From the NCBI GenBank assembly GCA_947167835.1, contig CAMVJO010000001.1, positions 1-59,258 on the forward strand: a stretch of 59,258 nucleotides of DNA, in the 5' to 3' direction. Both the position numbers and the translations under genes were made by a program. How positions within the stretch are numbered: position 1 is the first letter of the stretch; each line of letters opens with the position of its first letter. Under the pieces are notes generated by a model. That model saw only the letters and a list, made by a program, of their open reading frames with translations. It was not told the DNA's origin and did not search any database. Below are positions 1 to 27,298 of the stretch, piece after piece. The stretch comes from an uncultured Prevotellaceae bacterium (GTDB lineage Bacteria > Bacteroidota > Bacteroidia > Bacteroidales > Bacteroidaceae).

Positions 1-448
1 AGCACTGCGGACACATAATTTAGCGATTCTCAACTTTTACCGGACACCAATAAAATTTTTTATCTCGGAGCTATTTTTCCTTATTTTCCGGGGCGTTTTT
101 TTTCTATCGCGATGCCGTGATTCCAAAATCCAGGACTTCAAAACTTTACATTCCCCGCATTTAGCGTTTTCTCACGCATAAAACTCTAAAATTGAATAAA
201 AACAACAATAAAATGGCAACTATACTTGCCAAAATAGGGGGGGGTAATTGTTAAAATGGCGCTTTTTTGTCATTTTGACAATTATAGGGCTTCTACCTGT
301 GAAAAAAAATTGTAATTTCGTACAAATTTTATGCAGAATACTTCTTTGAGGTATGATATACGACAGAAAAGTATAGGAAAGTCTGCATAAAATTTGGATA
401 AAAATGACAGAAAAAAGGAATTATCGACATAACATCACCTTGCTTTGC

Positions 449-2044
449 ATGAAAAAACTCATGCTGCTGCTCTTCCTATGCTTTATATGCGGGCAATCTG
501 TGCGTGCGCAGGTGTGGACTTATACGGAGCAGGAGGGTTTCTTCAAATACGTGAAGCCACGCACCAATCTCCTTTACTGGGGCACACTGACGCCCAACAT
601 CGGAGCGGATTTCTACGTGAGTCCGCGCGTTACCTTTGGCGGAAACTTCGGTTATCGCCCTTGGCCGCTGAGTGATGACGCAGATAAGAAATGGCGCCAC
701 CTGCTTGCAGCTGCCGAGTTGAGGCTATGGAACGACAGCACGTTCAAACACGAATCTACCTTCTGGGCAATCGATGCCATATACAGCCATTTCAACGTTT
801 CGGGCGTGAAATTCCCCTTTGGTATGTACCAAAGCGTGCGCGACAACCGTCTGCAAGGCGATATGGTGGCACTGGCCCTCTCTTTCGGCTATAATATCCG
901 ACTGAACTCCCTCCTGCGTATGGAATTCGAGGGAGGCATGGGCGTGGGCTTCGCATGGGCTGACAAATATGCCTGCGGACATTGCGGTACCTATCTGGGA
1001 AAAGACAATAAACCCTTCCTGATGCCGAAACTCGCCGTGAACATCGTGCTCGACCCGCGCAAAAAGCAACGTATAGAGCCGGTAATCATCATTCCCGAGC
1101 CTATCGACACCGTTGTGCCTGAGCCGGTGGAAGAACCCAAGCCGGTAGTGAAGGAACTCGTGCTGACATCTGTGGCCGAAAAGCTGGTAACAAGTCATCC
1201 CATCCTGAAAGACTTCAAAGACTACCGTCCCTACGACCGTACCCGCGTGATGCGTAAGGAAAAGGACATGCTCTATGTCCACTTCCCGCTGGATAAGATA
1301 GAATTGCGCCGCGACTTCATGGACAACGACACCATACTCGACGAAATAGTCAGCGTAACCCGTCAGATTATGGCCGACGACCGCAGCCGTGTCCGTCTGA
1401 TTCAGATCGTAGGTCTGGCTTCTGTCGAAGGTCCCGTCAAGCACAACGAATGGCTGGCAAAAGGCCGTGCCGAAGCCCTTCGCGACTACGTGTTGAAGGC
1501 CGTTCCCGAAACGACAACCGACATATTTGAAGTAAATGGCGGAGGCGAGGCCTGGTCTGAGTTCCGCGATCAGATCAATGACCTGCTTACCGACAGTACC
1601 CTCATGGCAAAACATAAGGAACTCACGCGTAAAGACCTTTTGGAACTGCTCCGCATCGCCAATGAGGAACCAAACCTCAACGTGCGCGAACGCAAACTCA
1701 AACAACTGCGTGGCGGACGTCCCTATCGCTACCTTCTCAGAACCATGCTGGCCGAACAGCGTAATTCCGGCTACGTACAGATATACTTTGAACGTGTGCC
1801 CGACGTGAAGGCCGAGACTATCAATCGCGGAGCCGCCCTTCTGAATCAACAGGACTACGAAGGCGCACGCCAGATACTCGAAACCGTGAAAGATGATCCC
1901 CGCTCCTGGAATGCCTACGGAGTATCCCTCTATATGACAGGGCAACATGAAGAAGCCATCGAATACTTCCGCCGTAGTGCCGAACAAGGCAACGACGAAG
2001 CCAAGGAAAACCTCAAGAGACTGGCAGAACATGGAGGTTCGTGA
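449..2044 (+). CDS. DUF3575-like outer-membrane beta-barrel + OmpA-like domain + C-terminal TPR protein, typical first gene of Bacteroidales fimbrial loci
   Basis: ORF 404..2044; likely start MKKLMLLLFL at 449 (signal peptide). N-terminal 'RTNLLYWGTLTPNIGADF...KLAVNI' resembles DUF3575; 'VHFPLDK...IVGLASVEG..HNEWLAKGRAEAL' is OmpA-like; 'AWNAYGV-like' TPR (SWNAYGVSLYMTGQHEEAIEYF) at the end. Confidence 0.75.
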   Translation: MKKLMLLLFLCFICGQSVRAQVWTYTEQEGFFKYVKPRTNLLYWGTLTPNIGADFYVSPRVTFGGNFGYRPWPLSDDADKKWRHLLAAAELRLWNDSTFKHESTFWAIDAIYSHFNVSGVKFPFGMYQSVRDNRLQGDMVALALSFGYNIRLNSLLRMEFEGGMGVGFAWADKYACGHCGTYLGKDNKPFLMPKLAVNIVLDPRKKQRIEPVIIIPEPIDTVVPEPVEEPKPVVKELVLTSVAEKLVTSHPILKDFKDYRPYDRTRVMRKEKDMLYVHFPLDKIELRRDFMDNDTILDEIVSVTRQIMADDRSRVRLIQIVGLASVEGPVKHNEWLAKGRAEALRDYVLKAVPETTTDIFEVNGGGEAWSEFRDQINDLLTDSTLMAKHKELTRKDLLELLRIANEEPNLNVRERKLKQLRGGRPYRYLLRTMLAEQRNSGYVQIYFERVPDVKAETINRGAALLNQQDYEGARQILETVKDDPRSWNAYGVSLYMTGQHEEAIEYFRRSAEQGNDEAKENLKRLAEHGGS

Positions 2045-2170
2045 CGTAAAAAGAAATAAACTTGCTTTGCTATTATGAACCGAAGCTGAAAAACTTCCTG
2101 TAGTACAGGCAAAACAAAAGAAATCAACATATAACAAACTTTATTCACAACTCACAAAAATTAAAAAATT

Positions 2171-4339
2171 ATGAGAAAATTAACAAACATGCTTTATGCT
2201 GTGGCTCTCGCCACACTGAGCACGGGTTTTGTAGCCTGCTCATCCGATGCCGATGAAATGGCCGAAACAAACCCCTACTACAATCCTGACACCCACGAGG
2301 TAGTTACTTCGTTCGTGTTCAACGTGGCTACTAACAACACGCCAACGTATCGTATGACCGAGGCCAACACACAGGCTACGACATCTACTGCATTCCGTGG
2401 TATCAGCAACGCAAAACTGTTCACCTTCGAGCGTCCTGCTGACGGTAAACATCTTTACAACGTGACTGACGCTTCTGTAGCATCTACTAAGTTCTTCGAT
2501 CTGGCCTCTGTTCTGAGCCCAGGTGAAATCAACCACACCGATAAGTCACACCGTGTGCTCGAAATAGGTCTGCCCGTAGCAACCAACACCCTGTTGTTCT
2601 ATGGTAAGGCTACACAAGGCACTCCTTCCTTCTCAGCACCTATGACTATCGAAGATGCAATCGGTAGTACCACCATGAATGTTGCTGACCAGCCCTACAA
2701 CACCACATTTGTGATGAACCAACGTTGCGCTGGCGACAATGCAACACGTTATAACGAAATGGTAGAAATGCTTACCAACGTTATCAACCGTATTGGTACT
2801 ACAACTTTGCTTTCTACAACCGATGTTTATTTCCCCACCGCTCCGACAACTGTAACTCACGCTACAGATATTACATGGGGTAGCTATCTCACCACACCAG
2901 GTAAGAGCCCGCTCAACTCACTCCTTGACCAGACTGCTCTTGAAGAGATTCTTGCATCAGTATTGAGAGAGTTGATCACTGTTCCCAGCGGTGAAATGCG
3001 TGACGGTTCAGGTAGCGGTGTAATACATCAGATTGGTGAACTCTGGACGCTGATCAACAAAGTAGCACATGCTACTCCGACAAACGAACAAGACGCTGTT
3101 GCCATTGCTTTTGCTAAGCAAGTTCAGAACCGTCTTGATAAATACTTCAACGCTACTGTTCCCGTTGATGGTTCTCCCGTTACAAACGTAGAATTCAAGG
3201 ACGTACAGGAAATTGGTGAGCAACTCGAAACCGTTGTTCCCGGCTATGCTGCTGCTAACTATGCAGACATCAAGACAATGAACCTCGTAGAATTCCCTGA
3301 AAACGTAGCGCTCCCCAAAGGTGCTACACAGTTGAACTACAACACCACATCAAAACTCTTTGAGTATAATGCAAGCCTCTCTGCTACAGGCATGGGTGGT
3401 GGTTCTATCACAAAAGCAAACTATGTATATCCTTCAGAATTGCTTTACTTCGGCAACAGTCCTATCCGTACGTCAGATGTTTCAAAGGTTCCTGCTGACT
3501 ATCCTGATGGTGTGTCAAACTGGGATACTCCTTCACAGTGGAGCGCAGACTGGGTAGCAAACTCTCACGTTTACTCAAGCACACGTAGCGTTGCCATGCA
3601 GTATGACATTAACTATGGTAATGCGCTTCTGAAGACAACCGTACGTTTCGGTGCTGCCAACCTCGAAGATAACAATGCTGCCATCCAATTGGCACGTCAC
3701 TCAAAGGTTGAGGCTAATAGAGTGATTCCCGCAACAGCAGGTAAGTTCCTTCTCAAGAGTATCTTGGTAGGTGGTCAGCCTAACAAGGTAGGTTGGGATT
3801 TCATTCCTACAAGCGATGCTACATTTACCCAATATGTATTCGATCGTCAGTTGAACACAGGTGCAGAAACGATTCCTACATACGTTTCAGGTACCGAATA
3901 CAGCACACCTAACTATACTCTGCTGTTTGATAACTACGATGCAGCACATGATGTGGACGAACAGAGCATTGTTTACGTTGCTTTGGAATTCCAGAACAAG
4001 ACTGGTAATACCTTCTGGGCTAAGGACAACTTGGTCCCCGTTGACGGTTATTTCTACATCATCGGTAAACTCGATCCCGCAGGTAAGAGCTATCCTTCAC
4101 GCACTCAGACAAACTATGTAATGCCTCCTTACAAGGCTGATGGTTCTGGTTCTGTAGAAGCCATTCGCGTATTCATGCAGGACTTCACAACTACCGCCAA
4201 CTTCGTACTTGGTCCAACTTCTCTCCAGAAGGCTTACCTCACAGTGCCCGACCTTCGTTCAAGCCAGGTATCTCTCGGTCTGAGCGTAGATCTTAACTGG
4301 GAAACCGGTCTGACTTTCGACAGCACTCTGGGTAACTAA
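2171..4339 (+). CDS. Large lipoprotein, putative major type V pilin (Mfa1/FimA-like stalk subunit)
   Basis: 722 aa; lipobox FVAC; Arg in 'TPTYR|MT' about 60 aa in (candidate protease maturation site); C-terminal 'LSVDLNWETG' donor-strand-like motif; codon use (GGT, GCT, AAC, CGT) suggests high expression; followed by strong hairpins. Confidence 0.65.
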   Translation: MRKLTNMLYAVALATLSTGFVACSSDADEMAETNPYYNPDTHEVVTSFVFNVATNNTPTYRMTEANTQATTSTAFRGISNAKLFTFERPADGKHLYNVTDASVASTKFFDLASVLSPGEINHTDKSHRVLEIGLPVATNTLLFYGKATQGTPSFSAPMTIEDAIGSTTMNVADQPYNTTFVMNQRCAGDNATRYNEMVEMLTNVINRIGTTTLLSTTDVYFPTAPTTVTHATDITWGSYLTTPGKSPLNSLLDQTALEEILASVLRELITVPSGEMRDGSGSGVIHQIGELWTLINKVAHATPTNEQDAVAIAFAKQVQNRLDKYFNATVPVDGSPVTNVEFKDVQEIGEQLETVVPGYAAANYADIKTMNLVEFPENVALPKGATQLNYNTTSKLFEYNASLSATGMGGGSITKANYVYPSELLYFGNSPIRTSDVSKVPADYPDGVSNWDTPSQWSADWVANSHVYSSTRSVAMQYDINYGNALLKTTVRFGAANLEDNNAAIQLARHSKVEANRVIPATAGKFLLKSILVGGQPNKVGWDFIPTSDATFTQYVFDRQLNTGAETIPTYVSGTEYSTPNYTLLFDNYDAAHDVDEQSIVYVALEFQNKTGNTFWAKDNLVPVDGYFYIIGKLDPAGKSYPSRTQTNYVMPPYKADGSGSVEAIRVFMQDFTTTANFVLGPTSLQKAYLTVPDLRSSQVSLGLSVDLNWETGLTFDSTLGN

Positions 4340-4348
4340 TTGACATTG

Positions 4349-4463
4349 TTCTCTTTTATTCGGATGTGATGGGGAAGTAACTTTCCCTATCGCTCCGATA
4401 AAAAAAGAATACCCTTTATCCCTGAACATTTTCATCGGCATAACCGACGGGAATGTTCAGGGA
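4349..4463 (+). terminator. Two tandem long stem-loops after the putative major pilin (terminator or mRNA-stabilising structures)
   Basis: TTCTCTTTTATTCGGA...TCCGATAAAAAAAGAA (4349-4409) and TCCCTGAACATT...AATGTTCAGGGA (4419-4463). Confidence 0.6.
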
Positions 4464-4585
4464 ATTAAAACAAAAAACCGACTGAGTCTTTCATAAAAGG
4501 CGGTGTCTTCCGCAAACGTACACGTATAATAAAAATAAATAAGGAGTGTGCGGCAATATGATTCGTAATCCGAAAAAACTGAAGC

Positions 4586-5659
4586 ATGACAATTTGCTTT
4601 AATTCATATCTGAAATCTGCTGCACGGCATCTTTCAATCTTGATGCTCGTGCTCATCACCACAATCGCCCAAACCGGTTGTTCTACCATTGACGACGATT
4701 TGAGCGAGTGTGGAACAGATTATAGAATGGACTACGAAATGCGTCTTGTCACTAACATGACGACAGAATTGCAGACACAACTGAATACGGTGGCCGAGGC
4801 AAATGTGGCTAAAGCCCTGAAACAACACCTTAGCACCATATTTACCGACGTGGCGAACGACATTTCGCTCTCGTTCTTCGACACAGTGGGTGATTCCGCC
4901 ATACTTCACCACGAAGCCCACGTCATTAATAAAAGCCAGCACAGTTATACCCTCTATTTGCCCAAACATAAATATGCGCATGTGGCATTGGCCAATATTC
5001 AGGACAACGGACTGGTGAAAGAAGTAGGCGGTGAGAAATGCCATGACTTCCATCTGGAACAGCCCAAGGCAGATACCATCGATTCGCATGCTACAGGTCT
5101 TTTCACAGCCCGACAAGATATGGATGTGCTGGAGGGGGTGGATCAAACCTTCGACGTAAGGCTCTATATGGCCAACTGTGCTAATGTTTTCATCGTAGAT
5201 CCGCGTGGACACAGCACAGACGGAATGAAAATCTACGTCACAGGATTTGCTTCATCGTTTAATCCCGCTGACAGTGCCTATAACTATGTCGGTAAAACCC
5301 CCATCGTGCGTCCTACCCTCATCAAAACAGAAGGTAGTTCCCTGCTATCATACTGTGCTGTCACCTTCCCTTCGCGCGAAAAGGGCGTAGATACAAAAAC
5401 CATCATCGAAACCGAAGATCCCTTCAAGTCGTCTGTCGATACCAAGTCCGTATGGCGTTACATAGCCTACGTAAAACAACCTGATGGCAGCGTTACCGCT
5501 ACGAAACTCAGCATGATGCAACCCATTAGGGCGGGACAATTGAAAATAGTCAAGGCCTATATTGACGATGATGGCTCTTTGAAAACATCGGATGCGAGTG
5601 TGGCTGTAAGTGTGCAGTTGAATTGGAACGATAATATGACTGAAGACGTGGATTTGTAG
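4586..5659 (+). CDS. FimB/Mfa2-like fimbrial anchor lipoprotein
   Basis: 357 aa; lipobox QTGC followed by 'STIDDDLSECG', a typical Mfa2-family N-terminus (C-x-I-x-D-D-L-x-x-C); C-terminal 'VSVQLNW'. Confidence 0.7.
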   Translation: MTICFNSYLKSAARHLSILMLVLITTIAQTGCSTIDDDLSECGTDYRMDYEMRLVTNMTTELQTQLNTVAEANVAKALKQHLSTIFTDVANDISLSFFDTVGDSAILHHEAHVINKSQHSYTLYLPKHKYAHVALANIQDNGLVKEVGGEKCHDFHLEQPKADTIDSHATGLFTARQDMDVLEGVDQTFDVRLYMANCANVFIVDPRGHSTDGMKIYVTGFASSFNPADSAYNYVGKTPIVRPTLIKTEGSSLLSYCAVTFPSREKGVDTKTIIETEDPFKSSVDTKSVWRYIAYVKQPDGSVTATKLSMMQPIRAGQLKIVKAYIDDDGSLKTSDASVAVSVQLNWNDNMTEDVDL

Positions 5660-5781
5660 GATTCCTCTGATTATTCTGGGATATAAGGATTTTCTATGTC
5701 CATAGATTTTTCCAAATGTTCCGGTTATTCGAGAGTAAACCTATGGAAATCCCAAATAAGCAGGAAGTAGAAGATATTTCT

Positions 5782-6675
5782 ATGAAGAGAATCATTCTGA
5801 CATTGACACTGTTGCTGGCAATTCCGGCAATACTCTTTGCTCAGGGCTACCAACCCAAACCTGTGCCCGAAAAGATAAAGGGCGGTGAGGAGCGGTTGCA
5901 ATATATGGCCAGGCACTATTGGGATGCCTACGATTTCCGCGATACTACCTTGCTGAGAACCGATTATGCTGAGCAGGCAATAGTAGATTATACGGCATTG
6001 CTGCAAAGCACCTCATCGGAAGAACAACGGAAAGCCTGGCAAAACCTCTTCAACAAGGCAGCGAAACGGGAGCAGACAGAGCGCTATTTCTATGCTACGG
6101 CAGTAAGGTATTTGGACAACCGAGAATCTCCGCTTTACAGTCCTGAAATGCTGGAACTCATGCTGCAAGCAGCCCAAAGTTCCGAACAAGCGGACATTAG
6201 CAGCAAGGCTTCCTTTCGGTTAAGACTGCTATCCGGCAATAGAGTAGGGCAAAGCATAGCCGACTTCCGCATAAAAACATTGCGCGGCGAGATGACAACC
6301 CTTTATGGCGTGTTGGAAAACAAGGCAGCCCTACTATTGTTCTACGACCCCGACTGCGAAGATTGTAAGTATGCCATATACCGAATTCGCCACTCACAAA
6401 CCGTTCGTGAGGCCGTGGCACAGAAGCAAATGCAGGTTGTAGCCGTATGTATCGGAGCGGATGAAAAACTTTGGCGCGTGGCTTGTGATGAAATGCCCCC
6501 TTCGTGGACACACGCCTTAGACAAAACCGATATCAGAGCCCAGGCCCTGTATGATTTATCAGAACTACCCCGTCTCTATATGGTGGATTCGCAACACCGT
6601 GTGGCGGCAAAAGATATAGATATCAACCATATTAACGAATATCTCGGCTTCGCGCGCGCGCGTAATAATAATTAA
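5782..6675 (+). CDS. DUF5106 + thioredoxin-like (redoxin) protein
   Basis: ORF 5716..6675; likely start MKRIIL at 5782. 'YMARHYWDAYDF' is DUF5106-like; 'LLFYDPDCEDC' is a CxxC redoxin motif; 'YDLSELPRLYMVD'. Confidence 0.8.
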   Translation: MKRIILTLTLLLAIPAILFAQGYQPKPVPEKIKGGEERLQYMARHYWDAYDFRDTTLLRTDYAEQAIVDYTALLQSTSSEEQRKAWQNLFNKAAKREQTERYFYATAVRYLDNRESPLYSPEMLELMLQAAQSSEQADISSKASFRLRLLSGNRVGQSIADFRIKTLRGEMTTLYGVLENKAALLLFYDPDCEDCKYAIYRIRHSQTVREAVAQKQMQVVAVCIGADEKLWRVACDEMPPSWTHALDKTDIRAQALYDLSELPRLYMVDSQHRVAAKDIDINHINEYLGFARARNNN

Positions 6676-6709
6676 GGAGTGTAGCACCGAGGGGAGTATT
6701 CTTAGGAAC

Positions 6710-8434: not shown

Positions 8435-8473
8435 CCCGAAGAAAGCGAAAAACGGAGAGGAAGAATATATAAT

Positions 8474-9658: not shown

Positions 9659-9714
9659 CAAGAAAAAACAGGAGATAGCATCGAGAAAAAAGATTTGAAA
9701 CAGGATAAAACGTA

Positions 9715-10812: not shown

Positions 10813-10813
10813 A

Positions 10814-19800: not shown

Positions 19801-20968
19801 TGCCGTATTCAGAAATGAAGATGCTTTCGAGGGACGTACGGACCACTTCCTCGTGGATAAGAACGACTTCAATGCGCCTATCTCTTATTCCTTCGTAAAC
19901 AACAAGCGAATGTGGTATCAACGCAAGCCCGATACCTACGTTGATATCAATAAGGGCTGGGAAAGCATCAGCATTCCGTTCACGGCTGAAATGGTTGCCA
20001 CCAACGAAAAAGGCGAAATCACCCATTTCTATGGCGATAGCAAGGTCGGACACGAATACTGGCTACGTACGTATCGCGATATCTCGGCTGTGGATGAGGA
20101 AGACAAGGCTACGGCACTCTTCACCCGTCCCGATGCAATGGCTGGCTACAATAAGGAATATGCCAACACATTCCTTTGGGATAAGTACTATTCTTATAAT
20201 AGTTATGACGATGCCAATGGCGACGACTATCCCGATAACGACAAGGACAAGGCATATTACAGATACTCCACGCCACGTGTCTATGAAGACTATCCGCTCT
20301 TGCAGAATGCAGTGCCGTATATCATAGGCTTCCCGGGAGCAAGATATTATGAGTTCGACCTTAGCGGTACGTTCGAGGCACAGAATACGGCCAGTCCTGC
20401 ACCTACCAAACTGTCGCGACAGACTATCTCGTTCGTATCTCAGCCTAACATCGAAATTCAGGTGAGTGACACCGAATTGGCCGACGGCAAGATTACCCAT
20501 AACGGCTATACCTTCTGGCCTAATTACCTTAACAATGTAGTCAAGGCAGACGGTTATGTTTTGAACGCCGATGGCAATTCGTATGTCAAGACTACTGAGG
20601 AACAAACGGAGAAAGAACGCACGGTACTGCCGTTCCGTTCGTACTTTGCTGCCTCGGGTGCCGCAGATAATGGTGTGAAACGTGCCCGTCGCATCGAGTT
20701 CTCTAACGATATCTCCTCTCTCTTCGGCGATGACGAGGACAATGGCGATTCAGGTCTGTACATACGTGCTTTGTCACACCGTGTATTGGTAACTTCCACG
20801 CTTCGCCACGAAACGCGTGTCCAGATACGTAATGTAGCCGGTCAGGTAACATCCGAATTCAGCATTGCACCGGGCGAAACCGTCGAGCAACCTATTTACC
20901 ACGCCGGAGTATATGTCGTTAATTCGACAGACGGAACGGTTCAGGGTCGCAAACTGCTCGTCAAGTAA
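10814..20968 (+). CDS. Giant secreted Gly-repeat (beta-helix-like) surface protein/adhesin with putative T9SS C-terminal domain
   Basis: 3384-aa ORF; signal peptide; dozens of [VI][YF]GG[GAC] repeats in the N-terminal ~1400 aa; GLUG-like region 'FEGVVHGDGHTVSGL..LF.NLCGDVYNLGV'; CTD-like end 'IRNVAGQ...GVYVVN...GRKLLVK'. Confidence 0.7.
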   Translation: MKGINTISTARLLQGMKYVLVLCLIVFVLPIHSQEEHVIEIKGNVFGGARMADVKSTHVTVYGGKVYNVYGGNDITGKVQEGSRLDIYSSIIEDVFGGGNGSYVYTDVAANKEVPKYQDYYYEPGEDSYESLNAFRPNLAKTYVHVAGTEENPTFIGGSIYCGGNSCTLRAGSDDPRVTTHLQIGSYVIADSVFFGNNGANMITADFMEQYADDAVSSLDLTDSLNFAKYMQGAEMSVRPSLGFDEGYEEYSTKIGSFYLGGNVGSLSVAGMYSVTLDEPIVIYNKLVGGCNDANVPKGTYNAFYQGGVISETRPVKIKFNIAGVKLEPHKLTYDQGTHTFSLEEWRKDEAGLLVGANIYGGCFKSGYINGGVEINIKDDAISNRVFPACGVPLSDMQQAPLVSALSVYGGGYGSNTEIWGDVVINITENAGILNVYGGGEQGVVGKMEYDTNGNHTGRVLQAYNTTVNLDANLLDDNKLNASRLYAGGFEGVVTGNTTLNLNQGRIYRGFGGSCNADILGATTTIIGQSSRPYVTGNVYGGNDFGGQIQGTLKHHLNDENLQYQDIRSNTYVEYLSGHIDGNIFGGPCGDYDYSGYVGKYSSKPTLLTALVKGDCDYAPNTFVNIASTSTSPEDVVTNIFGAGQGKSGKMGAADINTSYVLLHAADASVRENDLATNIYGAGDCSLTHDALVDAYSVVTKRIFGGCQGSVYTDVFNADGSSKAGIDANLSYMGETSTVNLWTGMDKKSTDVYGAGAYSGTKHSVVNLYGGEANNIYGASLDQGVTYLAQVNVPDTSTAKVNAIFGGAKGNSNTYNCDAYVSYINFNSPKATVEQAIYGGNHDNRFTRDAYIHINQPVQNKKGKLVNVFGAGYGSNTVAGRSHIFMEKGAKALNVYGGGRDGSVLIAPSLQHFINTYDVSGSEDIYKERTDPKGFLDFAEEKADLFTSLGIVNNYRTSTDPSTSVHLLDSSYVEENVYGGGLGSTATIAGTTGVMLEGGTVAGDLYGGGKGGHVMDTYRLRNFVAGTYVKLIGGTARNVYGGGLDGNVGMKGTVGQDYFARTHVVMGVKDQQNSTYKNGDATVERSIYGGGQRGAVIGMTNLYIHNGHVGYKYYAKEGEEATYHENIELVAGSGDELLKENGNAFGGGYGEGATVDTTNVILYGGVIRNSLYGGGEIASVGRAEMEEKGYLNSERSIISIERPGATNVTMYRGLVCRDVFGGGRGYSYDLTGNEVIGDSIYTDGYVFGHTGVNIYGGVVGTEDNVDDGYGNVFGGGNIGYVYSIEGSKSEEDGYYYDYRGNLTEDCTVIISPYAQVKDSDGISITNGGTYAYGEYVPTEDLNKLKNKAADRAQWDKLDVSGILIRNAVFAGGNVSTGSDKVFANVKTVFGNVTATLYDVYHRDLITVGTEHIGGLYGDGNLTFVDGYRELNITNYGTDYYGMHDRISLDEYSRLTDRERAYFSIEYECAQRVKIDGKWYEQGNRITEDVYSEFPEEYQTETYWTKAGFCSIYAGRLLNTLQRADFVGVFGSRMVLQGATDRVTDEVDYTQYTINRVGEISLNKQLSQAGDTEEESKSHGCYFGIYNIVNYLGHLTSDVKFGDVRYTDNSDASYRGDNYGTKTYLEWKRENVTNRKRNNGSSHNKVALASGVYLELTTEASTKTNKVYGDITGIIELDLINVMTGLGGGYVYARNEHGEPTYHPERTNVILSRYNTNAVTYKKYSYNSNYQNYQTSGNFVHNTKRIIDDCYPNNGSYDDGYVASPAHYWYVKGDIYVYDQTISAYTGASTAYSKEINIPLNITAASHGKMKLLNVQTSKFAYYQDPKTLEPIGELGVIAGNKTYYRGDPITYWDYMQLTDNEQKMFLDSVYVSVAACSTLSSGNPASTSYPSGTVMTVSDYKSFAAKNATLHHTERDEDVPVSDVFRLSNNMSFDNGYVLSLFMNNPKDWDQWYSIIKGDSETDRKSTRQYNALSKDDKELYLEGPSFATDESGVYGQRLYGIGDIITEEVYKNYNDIPEAWKPTENQATMERAYVAKSEVIYQYLGHESHVYPGVAISSTEYNALSTDAKACFAEAWTCTRTLDAGNNQFVFYTDLVDADSIAKLKQMYAAFYGVSADAASKVVDSHFSKAYYCLAAGEYGGRYYSTGENYSSLESWCALSAADREHFSFNYDAFNLLVDPQYQGNTALYGSPYDLTKPVDYTAKYTGNTDLQYHDKAGTLHTIAVGSADLEREDYELIPNEEAYYTPVLVDPTDAEGEDYYIVKTDFVRGDVPYAAGQIVSETMYNSLDSDQKNKVTYVRFVNTTEERQLYYYCHETYEVGALGEGMPFEDRDGVAYEVGDTVEAGVVITSDEYNDHIPNFQKSFLIKGKEPTETATLYVSRESDIYDLSSDRIITVIYQYSYNESDESGTHIEPINELHVVNIRVQFESGVPSIGQLLPPSTVLPGSTVGLKQPETSKGAYEILGGGWEIFTNKSDGENHRNGVPYINNATPMYWYQDGYYVAYYTKTYLGKTYSNAVQFSVANYHDLDAVMKDKDHHLYIDHPDVKRNSKIYIDNRDCTSDATKSKLDLLYDFHQLSLIEAPADTNDTYRIPDGIFEGHAVLNQEMVHSCENLDFFLGSDVSPKKYTTWNPIGATSCFEGVVHGDGHTVSGLTHSLFANLCGDVYNLGVTGSFTGAGIADAGTGYVENCWIKTTGEPDGSLYAVFGNPQRDSGTQIVNCYYPSTNNYKKTTCARGNATEKSLYAFNNGEVAYNLNGFYLKKRYKDHVGGNPELSGNMSYVTDRYDNIDFIYADGKIPVTTDIRFSTDDGLYHPLWPDDYLFFGQSLTYGYDEIAYQNTPSCINKTENGQLAHEEESNRVYRAPAYFRSSALDVAYFNSNAVFAMTTSDKSADIYPRMMTAIDFTGYGDNSYTREDEAGFFYRPLLDDDGLMRYRKFGITPNLLVYIPEVSVNQKTNQVLSKYFLTEPVYDTNSHDDAGSTNVATIDASVIRGHAVFRNEDAFEGRTDHFLVDKNDFNAPISYSFVNNKRMWYQRKPDTYVDINKGWESISIPFTAEMVATNEKGEITHFYGDSKVGHEYWLRTYRDISAVDEEDKATALFTRPDAMAGYNKEYANTFLWDKYYSYNSYDDANGDDYPDNDKDKAYYRYSTPRVYEDYPLLQNAVPYIIGFPGARYYEFDLSGTFEAQNTASPAPTKLSRQTISFVSQPNIEIQVSDTELADGKITHNGYTFWPNYLNNVVKADGYVLNADGNSYVKTTEEQTEKERTVLPFRSYFAASGAADNGVKRARRIEFSNDISSLFGDDEDNGDSGLYIRALSHRVLVTSTLRHETRVQIRNVAGQVTSEFSIAPGETVEQPIYHAGVYVVNSTDGTVQGRKLLVK

Positions 20969-21042
20969 GGAATCTTTGTCGGTATATTCGGGAGAAACGT
21001 GAATATAGCCGTAATCATGCCGTCGGAAGGCTGCAAAAAAGA

Positions 21043-21126
21043 TTCTCATCGCGTAGAGAAAGTTTTCTCATGGCGATGATAAAGTTTTCTCAACGCGAAG
21101 AGAAAATATTCTCAACGCGAAGAGAA
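21043..21126. repeat. Tandem array of four 22-bp palindromic units (TTCTCnnCGCGnnGAGAA)
   Basis: Units start at 21043, 21065, 21087 and 21109; the same family occurs at 47447-47530. Confidence 0.85.
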
Positions 21127-21271
21127 TGGAAAAAGGCGGGGAAAGACGCAACTTTCTTTGAGATTGTAACGTACTTCCCGAAATATAAAACCAAATACAA
21201 GAACCACCTAAATATTGCAGGGTAGGGCGGAAGCAAATCCTCAGTCCCCCGAATAAATAACCATCATTTAA

Positions 21272-21457
21272 GGGTTGTTCTAAAAATTAGGCTGTTTTGA
21301 GTTTTCGAAGATTTTTGAGTGATTTTGTATTTAATTTCGCAGAAGCATAGTAACCTATGGTTCAAGGAATAAAAGACAAAAGCGCCAAAAAGATTGAAAA
21401 ATCATACAGACTTAAATGGACTTCCCAATATTTATAAACTAATTTTTAGAACAACCC
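21272..21457. mobile_element. MITE-like element, short form (186 bp)
   Basis: TIR GGGTTGTTCTAAAAATTAG / CTAATTTTTAGAACAACCC; TTAA on both flanks; homologous to the four other copies. Confidence 0.8.
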
Positions 21458-21478
21458 TTAAGAACCATTTGTTCAGCA

Positions 21479-24400
21479 ATGAAATATTTATTTTCGTCAT
21501 ATTTTCACCGTATATGTCGCTCTTTGTTCGTGACACTGCTGTTGCTATGTGCCACCAGCGCATCTTTTGCGCAGATAGCAGAGGGATTATACTATATAGC
21601 CAGTTATAACTCTTATAACAAGACGAATCATGCGGCTACGTTCTATATATGCCCCGCAGATATCTCGTGGGCGTCTGGTCAGCCTTACCTAACTACGAGT
21701 AAGAACAATCAAAGCGATCTTTTTGAGGTGATAAAAGCAGATGACTACTATTATATCAAGCATGTCTCCTCGGGAAAATATCTTACTATCAACGGACCAA
21801 CTTTTGCTTCGGGAAATGAGCACCGTCGCCGCGTGCACCTTGAAGATGTTGCGGAACTCGGTGAGGATAACCTGTTCAGTATTATAGTTGGCGGCTCACA
21901 TAAAACAAATGGCACCTTCTATAATATCACTCACAAGAGCCTTGTTGTGAATGGCCACAAGTATCTGAACGTTACCGGCGGTAACCAGACATATAACGAC
22001 GGTGGTAAATCCGGTTATTCTGGTATTATAGGTTTGTATAACAGCGCTACCGACGGAGGTTCCCGATGGTATTTTGAAGCGCCGCCCGCTACGCTTGATT
22101 GTGCCAATCCTTACATCAGTTTGGACAGCGACGACAAGGTGAAAATCACCTGTACCACTCCCAGTGCCGTGATTTACTATACGCTTGACGGCTCTAATCC
22201 CACAAACTCTGCCACACGTCAGGTGTATTCCGCACCTTTTGCTATGGGAGCAGGACAAACTACGGTCAAAGCCGTGGCTACAAGATCTGGCTACACCGAT
22301 TCCGAAGTCATTCGCCTGGATGCTGTCAAACAAGTGGTAAGCAACAGTTCCGAAATCACCAATATGTATGGTTGCTACTACCTTGACGAAGGTTTTGTGC
22401 TAAGCAGTTCCATAGGAAGCTCAAATAATCCTTTCTGTGGCCTCATTGACGGCGGATTCAACGAGATTTCCCTCGATGAGCCTTTAGTGGATTATGCCAA
22501 AGGCGCCACTATTCGTAACATCAGGGTAGAAGATGCTTCCATTGACGTAACTGGCAATGCAGGAGCGATATGTAGTCATGCACAGGGCGTCACTCGCATT
22601 TACAACTGCGGCATTCTCTCGGGAACAGTCAAAGGTACGAAATATACCGGCGGCATTGTGGGTGAATTGAAGGACGCTGCCCGCGTCATCAACTGCTTTA
22701 GTTTTGCCGACATCACGGGTGGCACGTATGTTGGAGGCATTGTGGGTTACAATACCTTCCCTTCTACTGCGGATAACCTTAAAACGATGGTGATGAACTG
22801 CATGTTTTATGGCGATATCACAGATGGTACATCTAAGGCCCCGATTTACAATGGAGAACTGATAACTAACGTAGGAAATCAGAAAGGACTCAACAACTAT
22901 AACTATTTTACGATTGATGCTAACTACGCAAAATCGGGCGATATCCAGAAATACAACACCGCACTCGGTGCAGAAAAACGTTTCCTGGTGCGTTTCGAGC
23001 AATACCGCTATCTTCTCAACGGAAATCGCAACCTTGCTGCCTATTATGCCACCGACGACAGCAAAAACCGTGAGGCTATGGCCAAATGGGTGCTGGATAA
23101 ATCCATAAAGCAGTATCCTATCCTGAAACCGCAGGCCAAATATCCTTCCATTATCAACTATGACGAAACGTCCCTGCCTTCTCAGGGCACTTTGACCGTC
23201 AATATCCAGCAGGGTTCGGGATATCCTACCGGCGCATCCATAGTTGTTTCTTCAAAGAACCTGACTATTACCGACCAAGACCCCGAAAACTTCAATTTCA
23301 ACTACCATAAAGTGCAGTTACCCTACTATAATGACGTAGGAACTCATAACTATACGAAAAATAAGGTGGTGACGGGTTGGAAAATCGTGAACATAGTTGG
23401 CGGTACCAAGGGAGACTTTGTAAAAAAAGACACAGTAGGCGGCTACGACTTCACGAATCGCAAATGTACCGACAAGGATCTTTACAGTGTGAGCGAACGC
23501 GTGTTTGCACAGGGCGGGTATTTTGATGTTCCCGACGGAGTAACAAGCATTACTATCCAGCCGTATTGGGCAAAGTGCGTATATCTGAGCGATCCCACGT
23601 ACGATGTAACTTATTGGGAGAACGGAGCGAACTGGGCTCCCGTGGAAGTGGCAGAATTGGGCACGCAATATAGTAATGGTACCGAGGTGGATATCAACGG
23701 CAGTATGCAAAAAGTTTATACCACGCTGCCGAATGCGCTTACTGCACTGGCCGCCAGCACCAAGTCCAAGGTTTTTGACAATGCCGTCGTGCTGGTGGGA
23801 AATTTCCACCGGTTCTGTGGTGCTAACTCGCTGACAAAAGGTTATGATGGCGAGCCTTTCACACTTTTGTCCATAGATTTGGATAAAGACAACGAGCCGG
23901 ATTACAGTATGTTCATCCAACAGACGAACCGCCAGCTGATAACTCCCATTCGCTTTGACTTTATCAATATGATTAACCTTGGTATGGCGCACAAGGTCGA
24001 AGGTAGTATTCGTGTGCCCAACCTTGGTATTGTGCAGGCCACATCTTGGTTTGAAATTACCAACACTTGCCTCATACAGTTCGGACAGTTTGAATACGAT
24101 CACAGCACTCGTCAAAAAGCGCCCATGATACTTCATGGAGGAGTCTTCGATCAGTTTATTTCAAACTACAATTCCGCACCGAAAAACCTGACAGAATATC
24201 TTTATCTTGGCGAAAACGTATGGTTCAAGATGTTTAACAACGGACGTCACGCCAATACTGCTCAGAAATACTTCACAAAACATATTCCCATCAGCGTTTC
24301 GGGCGGTGATTACGAGAGTTTCTATCTTTCGGGCATGTTTAATCAGTTTATTGACACACAACCCGACGACGCAGAGTGCTATATCAGCGGCGGACGCTTC

Positions 24401-27001
24401 GGCGAAGTTGCGGGAGGCGGCATGGAACAAATTGATGGCAACGTAGAATGGAAAATCAACCACGCGGATATAAAATCCTTCTACGGTGGCGGCGTGAATG
24501 CCGCAAAGCCTATTAAGGGAAACATCACTGTTACGATAGAAGGCAGTAATGTAGGAACATATTGCGGAGGTCCGAAATTTGGCGACATGACTACGGGCAA
24601 GAAGGTCAAGACTACGGCCAGCGATTGCGAATTCAATAAATTCTTTGGCGCAGGTTATGGCGGAACTTCCCTGAACCGTGTGGCAAAGGTGGACTCTACA
24701 CAACATACAAACTACCCTTTCAATGCGTATGTCACCCAATACTATGATCGTAAGTACAATTCCGGAAGTGCGGGCGTAGCTGTTGGGTATGAATACGAAC
24801 ATATCGTGTTTACCGGCTTCACTAATGACAATACGGTGGGACGTTTTTACGTGAACTACGCCTCTCTTTCTCTGGCTACCGTTGATAGTGTGGAATCTGT
24901 CCTCACGGGTTGCACCATTCACGACAATTTCTATGGTGGCGGCAACCTTGGTAAGGTGACAAGCGGTGCTAATTCAAAACTCTTCGGATGTACGGTTGAA
25001 GGTGACGTATATGGTGCAGGATTCTCGGCAGACATTCCTACTTGTGACGTCATGCCTATTCAGGGAATGACACCTGAACCATATTATAACGGACTTGCCG
25101 GTGTGTTTATCACGGGTGAGATGCCTCAGACCGTAGCTTACAAATGGCATCAGGTGGCAAGTGTGAGCGCAGGCAATGAATTTGACGAAGTAAACAAATA
25201 TATTTATACCACAGCCGACCTTAATACTTTGGGGCAGGTAGGTGGCGAGATTTATCTCACCGTCGATAATGGAACGCGCGTATATGGTAGCGTATTCGGC
25301 GGAGGAAACCAGTCGGAAGCCACAGGTAATGCCAACGTGACGGTAGCCGGTAGCGGAACTGTCGTCACTAATAGCGTTTTCGGCGGCGGTAATGTGGCTG
25401 TGCTCGGAGGAAATGCCGAAGTTCACCTGTCAGGCGGCACGGTAAACCGCAATCTTTACGGTGGTGGCAATGTAGCCGAAGTTGAGGGCACGACATCGGT
25501 GGAAATCACGGGTGGAGAAGTCATTAACGACGTATATGGCGGCGGTAACGAGGCGAATGTGCGTAGTAGCGTGACGGTAACGGCCAATGGCGGTACGGTA
25601 CGCGGTGCTCTCTACGGGGGAGGCGCACTTGCCAACACGAATACGGTGGACGGTGCTACGGTAGTGGATTTGCTTGGCGGAAAGGTGAACGATGTCTATG
25701 GCGGAGGATTGGGTAATGCCGAGACTGCTGCCCTTGTGGGCGGAAATGTGACGGTTACCCTCGACGGAAGCGAAGTTACGGGGCAGGTATTCGGATGTAA
25801 CAACGTAAACGGTTCACCGCAGAAGCACGTAAAAGTTCATGTGAAGCGCACGGCGAGATATAATAACGATGGTACGCTTCGCAGCAAACCCGAAAAGGAA
25901 AAAGATATCTACGAGGTGGCAGCCGTTTACGGCGGTGGCAATAAGGCGCCCTTTGTTCCTATTTCCGTAAACGAATATACCGAGGTTCTTGTCGAAGGTT
26001 GCGATGAAACGAGCGTAGGTAGTGTTTACGGCGGCGGCAATGCGGCATCGACACCTGCCACAGATGTTTTGATAAGTGGCTGCTATGAGATAGATTATGT
26101 GTTCGGCGGCGGAAATGGTGCGGGCGAAGGCAATCCAGGTGCCAACGTAGGATATGCTGCCGACCTGGACGGAAATCCTAAGACGCCTGGAGCGTCCTAT
26201 GGCTTGGGTATAGCCAGAACTACTATCAGTGGTGGAAGAATTCACCACGTGTTCGGTGGCAGTAATACGCGTGGAAACATCCGTGAGACGGCAGTATCGA
26301 TGCTTGACGAGGTTAACGAAGAATGTCCTATTGACTTAGGCGAGTTTTTCGGTGCGGGCAACGAGGCTTATATGGATGGCGATGCAAGAATCTACATGGG
26401 ATGCGTTTCGTTTATCAACGAACTCTATGGCGGCTCCAAGAATGCGGATATTGCCAAGGACATTGAATTGCATATCACCAACGGAACGTTTAATAAGATC
26501 TTCGGAGGAAATAAAAAGGGCGGTGCCATCAATGGTTCTATCACGATTTATATAGAGGAGTGGGGATGCCAGCCCATTCGCATCGGCGAACTGTATGCTG
26601 GTGGCAACGAAGCGCCCTATACCACGCCGGCGGGTAAGAATCACCCCAGAATATTTGTCGTTTCGGCCACGGAAATAGGAACTATCTTCGGTGGCGGCTA
26701 TGGTGAGTCGGCCGAAGTGGTGGGTAATCCCTATATCAACGTCAATATGGTCAAGGGAATACTCAATAAGATTGACGATCAGGAGGGTGTCGATGTGCAA
26801 AATAATAATGTTGAGCAGGAAGTAGGTACGATAGGCACTATTTTCGGAGGCGGCAACAGGGCTGTCGTTCGCGGCAATACGAAAATAGAAATCGGTACCG
26901 AAGGAAAATCTGCCAAGATCACGGGTAACGTCTATGGCGGCGGCAATCATGCCGAAGTAACCGGAACTACCGACGTAATCATCGGTAAACCAAAGGAATA
27001 G
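21479..27001 (+). CDS. Large secreted protein: beta-trefoil-like + chitobiase/hexosaminidase C-terminal (Fn3-like) + GLUG-like + C-terminal Gly-repeat beta-helix
   Basis: 1840 aa; signal peptide (ASFA|Q); 'ITCTTPSAVIYYTLDGSNPT...YSAPF...VKAVA' is CHB_HEX_C-like; 'YTGGIVG'/'YVGGIVG' are GLUG-like; many VYGGG repeats run to the very C-terminus; no T9SS-type CTD seen. Confidence 0.7.
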   Translation: MKYLFSSYFHRICRSLFVTLLLLCATSASFAQIAEGLYYIASYNSYNKTNHAATFYICPADISWASGQPYLTTSKNNQSDLFEVIKADDYYYIKHVSSGKYLTINGPTFASGNEHRRRVHLEDVAELGEDNLFSIIVGGSHKTNGTFYNITHKSLVVNGHKYLNVTGGNQTYNDGGKSGYSGIIGLYNSATDGGSRWYFEAPPATLDCANPYISLDSDDKVKITCTTPSAVIYYTLDGSNPTNSATRQVYSAPFAMGAGQTTVKAVATRSGYTDSEVIRLDAVKQVVSNSSEITNMYGCYYLDEGFVLSSSIGSSNNPFCGLIDGGFNEISLDEPLVDYAKGATIRNIRVEDASIDVTGNAGAICSHAQGVTRIYNCGILSGTVKGTKYTGGIVGELKDAARVINCFSFADITGGTYVGGIVGYNTFPSTADNLKTMVMNCMFYGDITDGTSKAPIYNGELITNVGNQKGLNNYNYFTIDANYAKSGDIQKYNTALGAEKRFLVRFEQYRYLLNGNRNLAAYYATDDSKNREAMAKWVLDKSIKQYPILKPQAKYPSIINYDETSLPSQGTLTVNIQQGSGYPTGASIVVSSKNLTITDQDPENFNFNYHKVQLPYYNDVGTHNYTKNKVVTGWKIVNIVGGTKGDFVKKDTVGGYDFTNRKCTDKDLYSVSERVFAQGGYFDVPDGVTSITIQPYWAKCVYLSDPTYDVTYWENGANWAPVEVAELGTQYSNGTEVDINGSMQKVYTTLPNALTALAASTKSKVFDNAVVLVGNFHRFCGANSLTKGYDGEPFTLLSIDLDKDNEPDYSMFIQQTNRQLITPIRFDFINMINLGMAHKVEGSIRVPNLGIVQATSWFEITNTCLIQFGQFEYDHSTRQKAPMILHGGVFDQFISNYNSAPKNLTEYLYLGENVWFKMFNNGRHANTAQKYFTKHIPISVSGGDYESFYLSGMFNQFIDTQPDDAECYISGGRFGEVAGGGMEQIDGNVEWKINHADIKSFYGGGVNAAKPIKGNITVTIEGSNVGTYCGGPKFGDMTTGKKVKTTASDCEFNKFFGAGYGGTSLNRVAKVDSTQHTNYPFNAYVTQYYDRKYNSGSAGVAVGYEYEHIVFTGFTNDNTVGRFYVNYASLSLATVDSVESVLTGCTIHDNFYGGGNLGKVTSGANSKLFGCTVEGDVYGAGFSADIPTCDVMPIQGMTPEPYYNGLAGVFITGEMPQTVAYKWHQVASVSAGNEFDEVNKYIYTTADLNTLGQVGGEIYLTVDNGTRVYGSVFGGGNQSEATGNANVTVAGSGTVVTNSVFGGGNVAVLGGNAEVHLSGGTVNRNLYGGGNVAEVEGTTSVEITGGEVINDVYGGGNEANVRSSVTVTANGGTVRGALYGGGALANTNTVDGATVVDLLGGKVNDVYGGGLGNAETAALVGGNVTVTLDGSEVTGQVFGCNNVNGSPQKHVKVHVKRTARYNNDGTLRSKPEKEKDIYEVAAVYGGGNKAPFVPISVNEYTEVLVEGCDETSVGSVYGGGNAASTPATDVLISGCYEIDYVFGGGNGAGEGNPGANVGYAADLDGNPKTPGASYGLGIARTTISGGRIHHVFGGSNTRGNIRETAVSMLDEVNEECPIDLGEFFGAGNEAYMDGDARIYMGCVSFINELYGGSKNADIAKDIELHITNGTFNKIFGGNKKGGAINGSITIYIEEWGCQPIRIGELYAGGNEAPYTTPAGKNHPRIFVVSATEIGTIFGGGYGESAEVVGNPYINVNMVKGILNKIDDQEGVDVQNNNVEQEVGTIGTIFGGGNRAVVRGNTKIEIGTEGKSAKITGNVYGGGNHAEVTGTTDVIIGKPKE

Positions 27002-27008
27002 TGCTACA

Positions 27009-27280: not shown

Positions 27281-27298
27281 TGTAGCATTTTTCGTTAT

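What the first reader, a model, noticed from the sequence alone, without database searches (positions are those of the whole stretch)
449..27001. Candidate undescribed appendage system: type V pilus operon joined to two giant Gly-repeat surface proteins
Seen: nine co-oriented genes over 26.5 kb (DUF3575/OmpA-like, five lipoproteins with pilin hallmarks, a redoxin, then 3384-aa and 1840-aa secreted proteins). The last pilin-like gene stops 1 nt before the giant gene starts (TAA-A-ATG, 10810-10816), implying translational coupling. Known: Porphyromonas Mfa pili carry a T9SS-exported tip accessory (Mfa5). Inference: a much larger, architecturally different version, with lipoprotein-pathway pilins plus T9SS-exported beta-helical giants as tip or accessory adhesins.
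Basis: partly seen in the sequence, partly recalled or inferred. Interest (0 to 1): 0.8.

Follow-up and report, generated by a model that had tools for sequence, protein, structure and literature searches.

The report
Pilus operon with stackable giant fibres
Rumen Prevotella-type bacteria carry a conserved gene cluster that pairs pilus subunits with two giant secreted proteins; only one giant has an export tag, and the two are predicted to stack end to end into one modular fibre that likely caps the pilus and would carry the untagged partner out of the cell.

Summary
Real and conserved. Nine co-oriented genes (404-27001) encode five pilin-type lipoproteins, giant A (3384 aa) and giant B (1840 aa). 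The last pilin has the type V fold (Z 13.3) and sits directly before A in 70 of 75 relatives; B follows in 66 of 67. Correction: only A has a T9SS tail (16 of 20 A tails, 0 of 20 B tails). New: A begins, and B ends, with an uncapped, phase-matched rung of the same VYGGG repeat (116/120, 120/120). The ends are predicted to stack in register (score 0.90, best control 0.01). B is split at this motif into separately secreted heads and spacers in five loci, and homologues reach about 8,400 aa. Best reading: a modular beta-solenoid fibre, B hitchhiking on A, mounted on the pilus as Mfa5 is. Pilus attachment and hitchhiking are inferred; three loci keep A+B without neighbouring pilins. The scan noted the pilin-plus-A pairing before on other genomes; my look-ups found no note or paper on the stacking.

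The parts
404..2044 (+). DUF3575 + TPR protein (outer-membrane accessory; start at 449 gives the cleaner signal peptide). OmpA-like middle part is a recalled motif only
   Evidence: Pfam DUF3575 E 1e-35, TPR_2 E 5e-8; homologues recur upstream of the pilins
2171..4339 (+). 722-aa lipoprotein, likely the major (stalk) pilin; paralogue of the 574-aa gene
   Evidence: 27% to the 574-aa gene; Trp in the last 22 aa in 24 of 24 homologues, Arg site motif in 11 of 24; no Pfam or PDB sequence hit; RNA contigs end at its 3' end; fold not predicted
4345..4475 (+). two strong RNA hairpins after the likely major pilin (probable transcript end or step-down)
   Evidence: z -7.1 and -8.5, 0 of 200 shuffles as stable
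4586..5659 (+). Mfa2/FimB-type anchor pilin
   Evidence: Pfam Mfa2 above cut-off; Arg site motif in 0 of 33 homologues, second Cys in 31 of 33, C-terminal Trp in 33 of 33
5716..6675 (+). DUF5106 + thioredoxin-like protein with CxxC; likely a disulfide catalyst for the Cys-rich giants (inferred)
   Evidence: Pfam; CxxC kept in the 5 homologues found in 80 loci, all just after B
6710..8434 (+). 574-aa pilin-type lipoprotein (minor pilin)
   Evidence: C-terminal Trp in 77 of 77, Arg site motif in 47 of 77; Atlas feature hit to a P_gingi_FimA cluster, score 0.94, rank 18; no Pfam hit to a pilin family in 57 members
8474..9658 (+). 394-aa FimA-family minor pilin
   Evidence: Pfam P_gingi_FimA 23 bits over cut-off 21.4; NCBIfam FimD E 1.5e-12, under cut-off
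9715..10812 (+). 365-aa type V pilin with its own C-terminal motif; the dedicated adaptor candidate for giant A
   Evidence: AF2 pLDDT 87; Foldseek E 7e-9; Z 13.3, rmsd 4.8, 260 aligned to BVU_2522; C-terminal Trp in only 3 of 65; directly before A in 70 of 75 loci
10814..20968 (+). giant A, 3384 aa: signal peptide, VYGGG repeat region (about 45-1370), conserved core (1300-1800), split Ig-like domain holding Tyr-rich repeats (about 1765-2432), GLUG-like module (recalled motif), type A T9SS tail
   Evidence: 2105 relatives at E<=1e-3 among 2289 candidates scored
10922..11005 (+). first, uncapped rung of giant A (residues 37-64): predicted docking face for B
   Evidence: interface of the predicted complex; rung follows the signal peptide in 116 of 120 homologues
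20789..20965 (+). type A T9SS C-terminal domain of giant A
   Evidence: TIGR04183 23.9 bits (cut-off 23) on the tail alone; 20.5 bits on the whole protein
21271..21459 (.). MITE-like element inserted between A and B; not part of the system
   Evidence: terminal inverted repeats; many near-identical copies on other contigs
21479..27001 (+). giant B, 1840 aa: signal peptide, weak ricin-type hit, Fn3-associated/CHB_HEX_C domain, GLUG/M26_N-like module (PF05342 in many homologues), VYGGG repeat region (about 1000-1840); no T9SS tail
   Evidence: 3477 relatives among 7998 candidates scored
26903..26995 (+). last, uncapped rung of giant B (residues 1809-1839): predicted docking face for A
   Evidence: interface of the predicted complex; 120 of 120 homologues end in a rung
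27008..27281 (.). second MITE-like copy after B

Best explanation
The operon encodes type V pilins and two giant repeat proteins that are predicted to stack end to end into one beta-solenoid fibre, which likely leaves the cell through the T9SS on the tail of giant A alone and is likely mounted on the pilus tip through the 365-aa adaptor pilin. Steps: (1) Shown by family or fold match: the lipoproteins are type V pilins, with an uncleaved anchor (357 aa); roles of stalk (722 aa) and minor pilins are inferred. (2) Shown by sequence: A has a signal peptide and a type A CTD, and the genome has the SprA translocon; export itself is inferred. (3) Shown by sequence: B has a signal peptide and no CTD, and B ends at exactly the point in the 26-aa repeat where A begins. 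(4) Predicted: B's last rung pairs in register with A's first rung, giving one continuous solenoid, with B's variable sugar-binding-like head farthest from the cell. (5) Inferred: the pair docks in the periplasm and B is pulled out with A. (6) Inferred from gene order and the Mfa5 precedent: A binds the adaptor pilin. Length and tip are tuned by swapping heads and spacers that share the same docking ends.
For: Linkage: adaptor directly before A in 70 of 75 loci, B within 10 kb after A in 66 of 67. In an independent draw of 401 family genomes: adaptor in 53, A in 53, both in 51; A starts within 1.5 kb of the adaptor in 50 of 56 matches; 40 of 41 genomes with B have the adaptor or A. The two adaptor-only genomes have a short or divergent giant right behind it. 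Tails: TIGR04183 in 16 of 20 A tails (13 over cut-off), 0 of 20 B tails. SprA over cut-off in this genome. Ends: internal period VYGGG-xxAxVxG-xVxVNxxG-GTVxxD; B ends after the third segment, A starts with the fourth. Complex: 0.90 against best control 0.01, runs agree in at least 97% of contacts, partner pLDDT at least 76; the mark was reached by 116 of 157 solved complexes and 2 of 215 mismatched pairs; contacts are in register, N44/N1817, V45/V1818, F46/Y1819. Natural splits: in L022, L023, L039, L056, L070 B is a head ending in a rung plus a separate signal-peptide-bearing tail starting with a rung; two heads in tandem in L022, L023, L056, L061, L070. Of 149 new representatives listed, 138 end in a rung, 55 have a rung at both ends, none matched A's core. 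Precedent: Mfa5 is CTD-dependent and located at the tip (PMC8512630 passages); T9SS cargo is proposed to fold in the periplasm (PMC10202324 passages).
Against: No test of adaptor-to-A binding was run. In L019, L020 and L037 (one supported clade with L015) A and B stay together with no pilin upstream; the five genomes checked gave only weak adaptor-like hits (E 5e-14 to 6e-4) and no 574/722-type pilin, though they are incomplete. G382 (85% complete) has B but no A or adaptor was found. The controls were unrelated proteins, not other solenoids, so open repeat ends may stack with any kin; specificity is not shown. In this genome a MITE separates A and B, and RNA contigs cover B only in patches. 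PMC10202324 (passages) describes the CTD as the secretion signal, and my searches found no account of CTD-less hitchhiking. Threading a joined fibre of 5,000-12,000 residues through SprA is untested.
Confidence: 0.5

Rival explanations
1. A and B stack into a fibre, but A is anchored to the cell surface (A-LPS) like an ordinary type A T9SS cargo. The pilus is a separate, co-regulated structure.
For: Type A cargo is normally cleaved and attached to A-LPS or released (PMC10202324 passages). A+B persist without neighbouring pilins in L019, L020, L037. No pilin-like domain was detected in A (profile comparison probability 0.5%; no clear fold match).
Against: One specific pilin family, with its own C-terminal motif, tracks A almost one to one (51 shared of 53 and 53) while the upstream pilins are exchanged for other families. 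That points to a physical partner, not only shared regulation.
Confidence: 0.25
2. The pilus carries A, but B crosses the outer membrane on its own by an unrecognised signal (the terminal rung itself) and docks outside, or B stays periplasmic as a folding template for A.
For: B's C-terminal rung is highly conserved and could double as a signal. A's conserved core folds poorly alone (pLDDT mostly under 55 for model residues 1-530), so partners are needed.
Against: B carries variable domains typical of surface cargo, and in 10 of 59 complete B-like ORFs the same N-terminal domain is fused to a T9SS-type tail. Length varies from about 1,100 to 8,400 aa, which is hard to fit to a chaperone.
Confidence: 0.15
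3. The open ends are not an A-B joint: each giant self-stacks, curli-like, or the ends bind something else, and the predicted complex reflects repeat likeness.
For: Controls lacked solenoids. 55 of 149 representatives have rungs at both ends and could in principle self-polymerise.
Against: In this window A has a free rung only at its N-terminus and B only at its C-terminus, so neither can self-stack head to tail; the two ends are phase-complementary; natural splits of B recreate the same two ends.
Confidence: 0.1

Closest known systems
Porphyromonas gingivalis Mfa1 fimbria (mfa1-mfa5) with T9SS-dependent Mfa5
   Same: Operon of lipoprotein type V pilins (stalk, uncleaved anchor, accessory) followed by a large non-pilin gene with a signal peptide and a T9SS CTD (PMC8512630, PMC7835359, PMC13655056; passages).
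   Different: Mfa5 is 1228 aa with a vWF and Ig-like domains. Giant A is 3384 aa (mostly 3,700-4,100 in relatives), has no vWF hit and starts with a VYGGG solenoid. Tandem mfa5 copies all keep a CTD; giant B has none and is predicted to attach through A. The 574/722-aa pilins and the adaptor's C-terminal motif are in no Pfam family.
Type A T9SS cargo proteins of Bacteroidota
   Same: Giant A has a Sec signal peptide and TIGR04183; SprA is present.
   Different: A cargo that carries CTD-less partners through a stacked solenoid end was not found in my searches.
Curli (CsgA/CsgB) beta-solenoid fibres
   Same: Head-to-tail stacking of open beta-solenoid ends (recalled; PMC10192328 seen only as a search listing and abstract start).
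   Different: Curli are long polymers of small subunits with their own export system (recalled). Here each subunit is 700-8,400 aa, the stack is a short ordered chain closed by a head and by A, and the repeat has no Pfam or PDB sequence match.
RTX adhesins with a split domain (MpAFP/MpIBP, FrhA)
   Same: A's residues about 1765-2432 form an Ig-like domain split by a long insert (Z 6.4-6.6, rmsd 2.9-3.8, 94-99 aligned).
   Different: Z under 8 may be only a common arrangement; no RTX repeats or type I secretion features were seen.

Membership tests
Type V pilus (Bacteroidia) | pilins are lipoproteins with a lipobox Cys | tested here: met
   five window genes; Cys invariant in alignments A2 and A3
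Type V pilus (Bacteroidia) | two-domain transthyretin-like beta-sandwich fold | tested here: met
   365-aa gene: top 15 matches are all type V pilins or putative Bacteroides adhesins, Z up to 13.3, E 7e-9; 357-aa and 394-aa genes by Pfam
Type V pilus (Bacteroidia) | same fold in the 722-aa and 574-aa lipoproteins | tested here: inconclusive
   no Pfam or PDB sequence hit; Atlas feature hit 0.94 to a FimA cluster; not folded
Type V pilus (Bacteroidia) | protease site after the anchor strand in stalk and minor pilins, absent in the anchor pilin | tested here: met
   Arg motif in 11/24, 47/77, 25/29 and 45/65 homologues against 0/33 for the Mfa2-like family; the motif pattern is my own; a C11 protease is in the genome, its role untested
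Type V pilus (Bacteroidia) | filament forms by donor-strand exchange | not testable with these tools
   needs purified pili
Mfa5 (vWF-type T9SS pilus accessory) | von Willebrand factor A domain | tested here: not met
   no vWA family on A or B at E<=0.01; note that mfa5 genotypes D and E also lack it
Mfa5 (vWF-type T9SS pilus accessory) | signal peptide plus T9SS CTD, encoded after the last pilin | tested here: met
   giant A only
Mfa5 (vWF-type T9SS pilus accessory) | incorporated at the pilus tip | not testable with these tools
   needs immuno-EM or proteomics of pili
Type A T9SS cargo: giant A | TIGR04183 at the C-terminus | tested here: met
   23.9 bits on the tail, cut-off 23; 16 of 20 A tails hit
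T9SS cargo: giant B | a C-terminal sorting domain | tested here: not met
   0 of 20 B tails hit a T9SS model; none on the whole protein at E<=1; 120 of 120 homologues end in a repeat rung
Known beta-helix or beta-solenoid repeat families | match of the VYGGG repeat to a described family or solved structure | tested here: inconclusive
   no Pfam, NCBIfam or PDB sequence hit; the repeat region was not fold-searched; in-register contacts between rungs are predicted

The most novel reading that the evidence does not exclude
A new class of modular surface fibre in rumen Bacteroidales: separate giant gene products (variable heads, spacers of up to about 7,200 aa with two open ends, and one T9SS-tagged base) join by completing each other's terminal beta-solenoid rung. 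Untagged subunits hitchhike through the T9SS on the tagged base, and the rod, some 25 to over 70 nm long by rung count, is mounted on a type V pilus.
Probability: 0.35. Interest if true: 0.88.

Novelty: new variant of a known kind. Interest (0 to 1): 0.74.

Why it matters
How a T9SS cargo joins a lipoprotein-pathway pilus is open even for Mfa5. Here one adaptor pilin tracks one cargo across dozens of species, and a cultured strain has the operon (Xylanibacter brevis ATCC 19188, L078), so the question can be tested directly. If B travels on A, the rule that T9SS cargo needs its own CTD has an exception, and CTD-based secretome predictions miss some of the largest proteins of rumen Prevotella relatives. 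A two-ended docking rung shared by interchangeable heads and spacers would be a simple way to build and vary long adhesins on abundant fibre-degrading bacteria.

Tried and rejected
Composite transposon around B: the flanking MITE-like elements are common throughout the genome, so flanking is not special. Exact 1-nt coupling as a conserved feature: seen in 1 of 70 relatives. A-B fusion proteins: none among 150 listed representatives; this was the top of 1954 hits, so fusions are not excluded. Pilin-like domain inside A: profile comparison negative; fold searches of A 1242-2434 gave nothing at E<=0.001 and best Z 7.5 (CfaE pilin domain, rmsd 3.5, 125 aligned), a lead only; the conserved core was too poorly modelled to test. 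PDB sequence searches with the 722-aa gene, A2, A3 and A4 gave nothing significant. Reverse transcriptase or recombinase next to the giants: none among the 22 representative neighbours scanned; genes between A and B were RhuM, AAA/PD-(D/E)XK, YhcG, Abi-like, Lnb-like or small CTD-bearing proteins. Sigma-70 promoter and terminator scans were at chance level. Horizontal transfer: 0 of 36 and 0 of 32 same-genus genomes had the adaptor and the nearest A relatives by path carry other family labels, but the window's branch is unresolved in the quick tree and GC is ordinary (0.463 against 0.453), so no donor is claimed. Expression of B: RNA contigs cover it only in patches, which proves nothing either way. 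The Atlas held no model for the 574-aa gene and did not hold B, so B's repeat was not compared there. Xu et al. 2016 was not held; nothing is cited from it.

Full report
Observation. The nine genes exist as described, and TAA-A-ATG joins the last lipoprotein to the 3384-aa gene. I call the giants A (10814-20968) and B (21479-27001), and the last lipoprotein (9715-10812) the adaptor. The window is the start of contig C1 of a 2.25-Mb, 89.6% complete genome. None of the nine genes has a full-length paralogue elsewhere in it. A suf operon follows B. Relatives with titles are rumen or hindgut Bacteroidales, mostly Prevotellaceae and Bacteroidaceae, with one cultured strain, Xylanibacter brevis ATCC 19188.

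The pilins. The 357-aa gene hits Pfam Mfa2 and the 394-aa gene P_gingi_FimA, both above cut-off. The adaptor has no Pfam hit itself; 7 of 58 family members hit Mfa_like_1. Its AlphaFold model (pLDDT 87) matches type V pilins: Foldseek E 7e-9, Z 13.3 with rmsd 4.8 over 260 residues. The 722-aa and 574-aa genes are paralogues (27%) with no family or PDB hit and one Atlas feature hit to a FimA cluster (0.94); I did not fold them. Sequence marks sort the roles. The Mfa2-like family never has an Arg motif after the lipid anchor (0 of 33), which fits an uncleaved anchor (PMC13655056 passages). The other four families often do (11/24, 47/77, 25/29, 45/65). A Trp near the C-terminus, which I recall as a mark of the donor strand, is present in 24/24, 77/77, 33/33 and 27/29 members of four families, but in only 3 of 65 adaptors, which end in their own conserved motif. 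Two strong hairpins follow the 722-aa gene (z -7.1 and -8.5). RNA contigs from four bovine gut studies end at 4324-4369, and two span the gene. This is a weak hint that it is the major pilin: contigs give no strand or level, and I laid no silent control.

Linkage. A scan of GTDB genomes with an alignment of A confirmed 339 stretches and kept the best 80. The adaptor lies directly before A in 70 of the 75 loci with enough upstream DNA, and a B homologue lies within 10 kb downstream in 66 of 67. Of the five exceptions, L057 and L070 still have pilin-type genes upstream; L019, L020 and L037 have none. As an independent test I searched one draw of 401 family genomes three times. The adaptor was found in 53, A in 53, both in 51; A began within 1.5 kb of the adaptor in 50 of 56 matches; B was found in 41 genomes, 40 of them with the adaptor or A. 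Kin are not independent, so I give no p-value. The two adaptor-only genomes have a short A (G173) or a divergent giant of over 5,000 aa (G331) right behind the adaptor. All hits fall in 7 of 29 genera; outside the family only 1 of 347 genomes of the order had the adaptor, again followed by A. Upstream pilins are often replaced by other families, while adaptor, A and B stay together.

Only A has an export tail. TIGR04183 matches 16 of 20 A tails (13 over cut-off, the window's at 23.9 against 23) and 0 of 20 B tails. The genome has SprA. Of 59 complete B-like ORFs in the loci, 44 end in a repeat rung, 10 end in a T9SS-type tail (8 by pattern, 2 by eye) and share only B's N-terminal domain, and 5 look like frameshift fragments.

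Matching ends. Both giants carry a repeat with a VYGGG core: 28 motif matches in A, all but one in residues 45-1368, and 22 in B, all but one in 1001-1818. The commonest spacing is 25-26 residues, with period VYGGG-xxAxVxG-xVxVNxxG-GTVxxD. All 120 listed B homologues end in a rung, most 15-20 residues after the last GGG, that is, just after the third segment. In 116 of 120 A homologues the first rung follows the signal peptide directly and starts with the fourth segment. A therefore begins where B stops. Folding A(34-290) with B(1591-1840) gave a score of 0.90 against a best control of 0.01; the runs agree in at least 97% of contacts and the partner's pLDDT is at least 76; this mark was reached by 116 of 157 solved complexes and 2 of 215 mismatched pairs, counts that hold only roughly for my alignments. 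The interface is A 37-64 on B 1809-1839, in register. The model supports binding and does not show it, and the controls were not solenoids.

Natural experiments. In L022, L023, L039, L056 and L070, B is split inside the repeat region into a head that ends in a rung and a separate signal-peptide-bearing tail that starts with a rung; five loci have two different heads in tandem. Among 149 new representatives listed for B's C-terminal profile (top of 1954 hits), 138 end in a rung, 65 start with one and 55 do both, up to 7171 aa. Fused B forms reach open frames of 8373 and 7957 aa, the latter with 133 motif matches, and still end in a rung without a tail. At about 0.48 nm per rung (general knowledge of beta-helices) the window's A+B rod would be some 24 nm and the longest over 70 nm. 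In G254 the order is head, tail, then an A-like gene, so order on the DNA is not fixed.

The rest of A. Residues 1300-1800 are the most conserved (up to 73% per 100 residues) yet fold poorly alone, as expected if they need a partner or an oligomer; a shallow alignment of 38 rows could also explain it. Residues about 1765-2432 form a confident Ig-like domain split by Tyr-rich repeats; best Z 7.5, inconclusive. I found no pilin-like domain in A, so the adaptor's binding site is unknown.

Against the pilus link. In L019, L020 and L037, A and B sit together without pilins. With L015 these form one supported clade in the quick tree of 81 A cores. Their genomes gave only weak adaptor-like hits and no 574/722-type pilin, though they are incomplete. 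The A-B pair is thus the tighter unit and may work without this pilus. G382 has B with no A found. In this genome a MITE-like element lies between A and B; in relatives the gap is 100 nt or less in 34 of 65. RNA contigs cover A and the pilins in all four runs and B only in patches.

Mechanism. Best reading (0.5): a type V pilus carries, through the adaptor, a modular beta-solenoid rod whose base A is exported by the T9SS and brings B with it. By step: pilus about 0.9, A exported by the T9SS about 0.9, A-B stacking about 0.8, hitchhiking about 0.55, tip mounting about 0.55. These are my estimates. Rivals: rod anchored on the membrane apart from the pilus (0.25); B exported alone or kept in the periplasm (0.15); predicted stacking is only repeat likeness (0.1).

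Comparison and novelty. It works like the P. gingivalis mfa1-mfa5 system, where a CTD-dependent non-pilin is built into the tip (PMC8512630 and PMC7835359, passages). It is not a member of the Mfa5 family: no vWF domain, a different architecture, and a CTD-less partner. Nine literature searches returned no description of this locus or of CTD-less T9SS hitchhiking; the library lacks most subscription papers, and I read no supplements. Earlier AI notes of this scan report the pilin-plus-A pairing on several other genomes, one of them mentioning a larger partner gene. They agree with my reading and are not independent support. Look-ups by B's sequence and by the stacking idea returned nothing. 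Verdict: a new variant of a known kind, with a plausible new assembly and export principle. Interest 0.74.

Noticed in passing
window 21271-21459, 27008-27281, 31035-31313, 51047-51241, 58956-59146: MITE-like family (about 190 and 275 bp forms) with about 20-bp terminal inverted repeats; very many copies across the genome, some identical, often at contig ends. No transposase was sought.
   Followed up: partly
window 39717-40922 and 40949-42250 (- strand): Two tandem FtsZ genes after ftsQ-ftsA (both hit Tubulin and FtsZ_C).
   Followed up: no
window 53188-54693 (- strand): GH3 auxin-responsive-family acyl-amide ligase homologue (all three Pfam domains).
   Followed up: no
window 35563-38793: GH20 hexosaminidase of 1076 aa with a long unannotated C-terminal half and a Prevotella-type tail by eye.
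   Followed up: no
window 20990-21130: A second small repeated element with tandem 'ttctc...gcga' units lies between A and the MITE; other contigs of run X11 share it.
   Followed up: no
L002:709-2016, L003: A clostripain (C11) gene sits directly upstream of the pilin cluster in two near-identical loci; a candidate pilin-processing protease. The window's genome has one C11 gene on another contig.
   Followed up: partly
L016, L024, L025, L027, L031, L039, L042, L049, L053, L063, L064, L065, L072, L074, L080 (between A and B): Small to medium proteins with a short T9SS-type tail are often inserted between A and B; some share B's N-terminal domain. They may be further cargo of the same structure.
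   Followed up: partly
L031, L042, L053, L062, L064, L076, L081 (between A and B): The A-B gap is a frequent landing site for RhuM, YhcG, AAA/PD-(D/E)XK, Abi-like and HATPase genes.
   Followed up: no
L071: A appears in two parts (2316 and 1456 aa) with a 1401-aa B homologue between them.
   Followed up: no
G363:C10, G316, G360, G377, G205: Some genomes hold two copies of the adaptor or of A; G363 has two complete adaptor-A pairs 33 kb apart.
   Followed up: no
L088 (G331:C50): A divergent adaptor is followed by a giant of over 5,049 aa with only weak likeness to A's N-terminus: possibly a sister system.
   Followed up: partly
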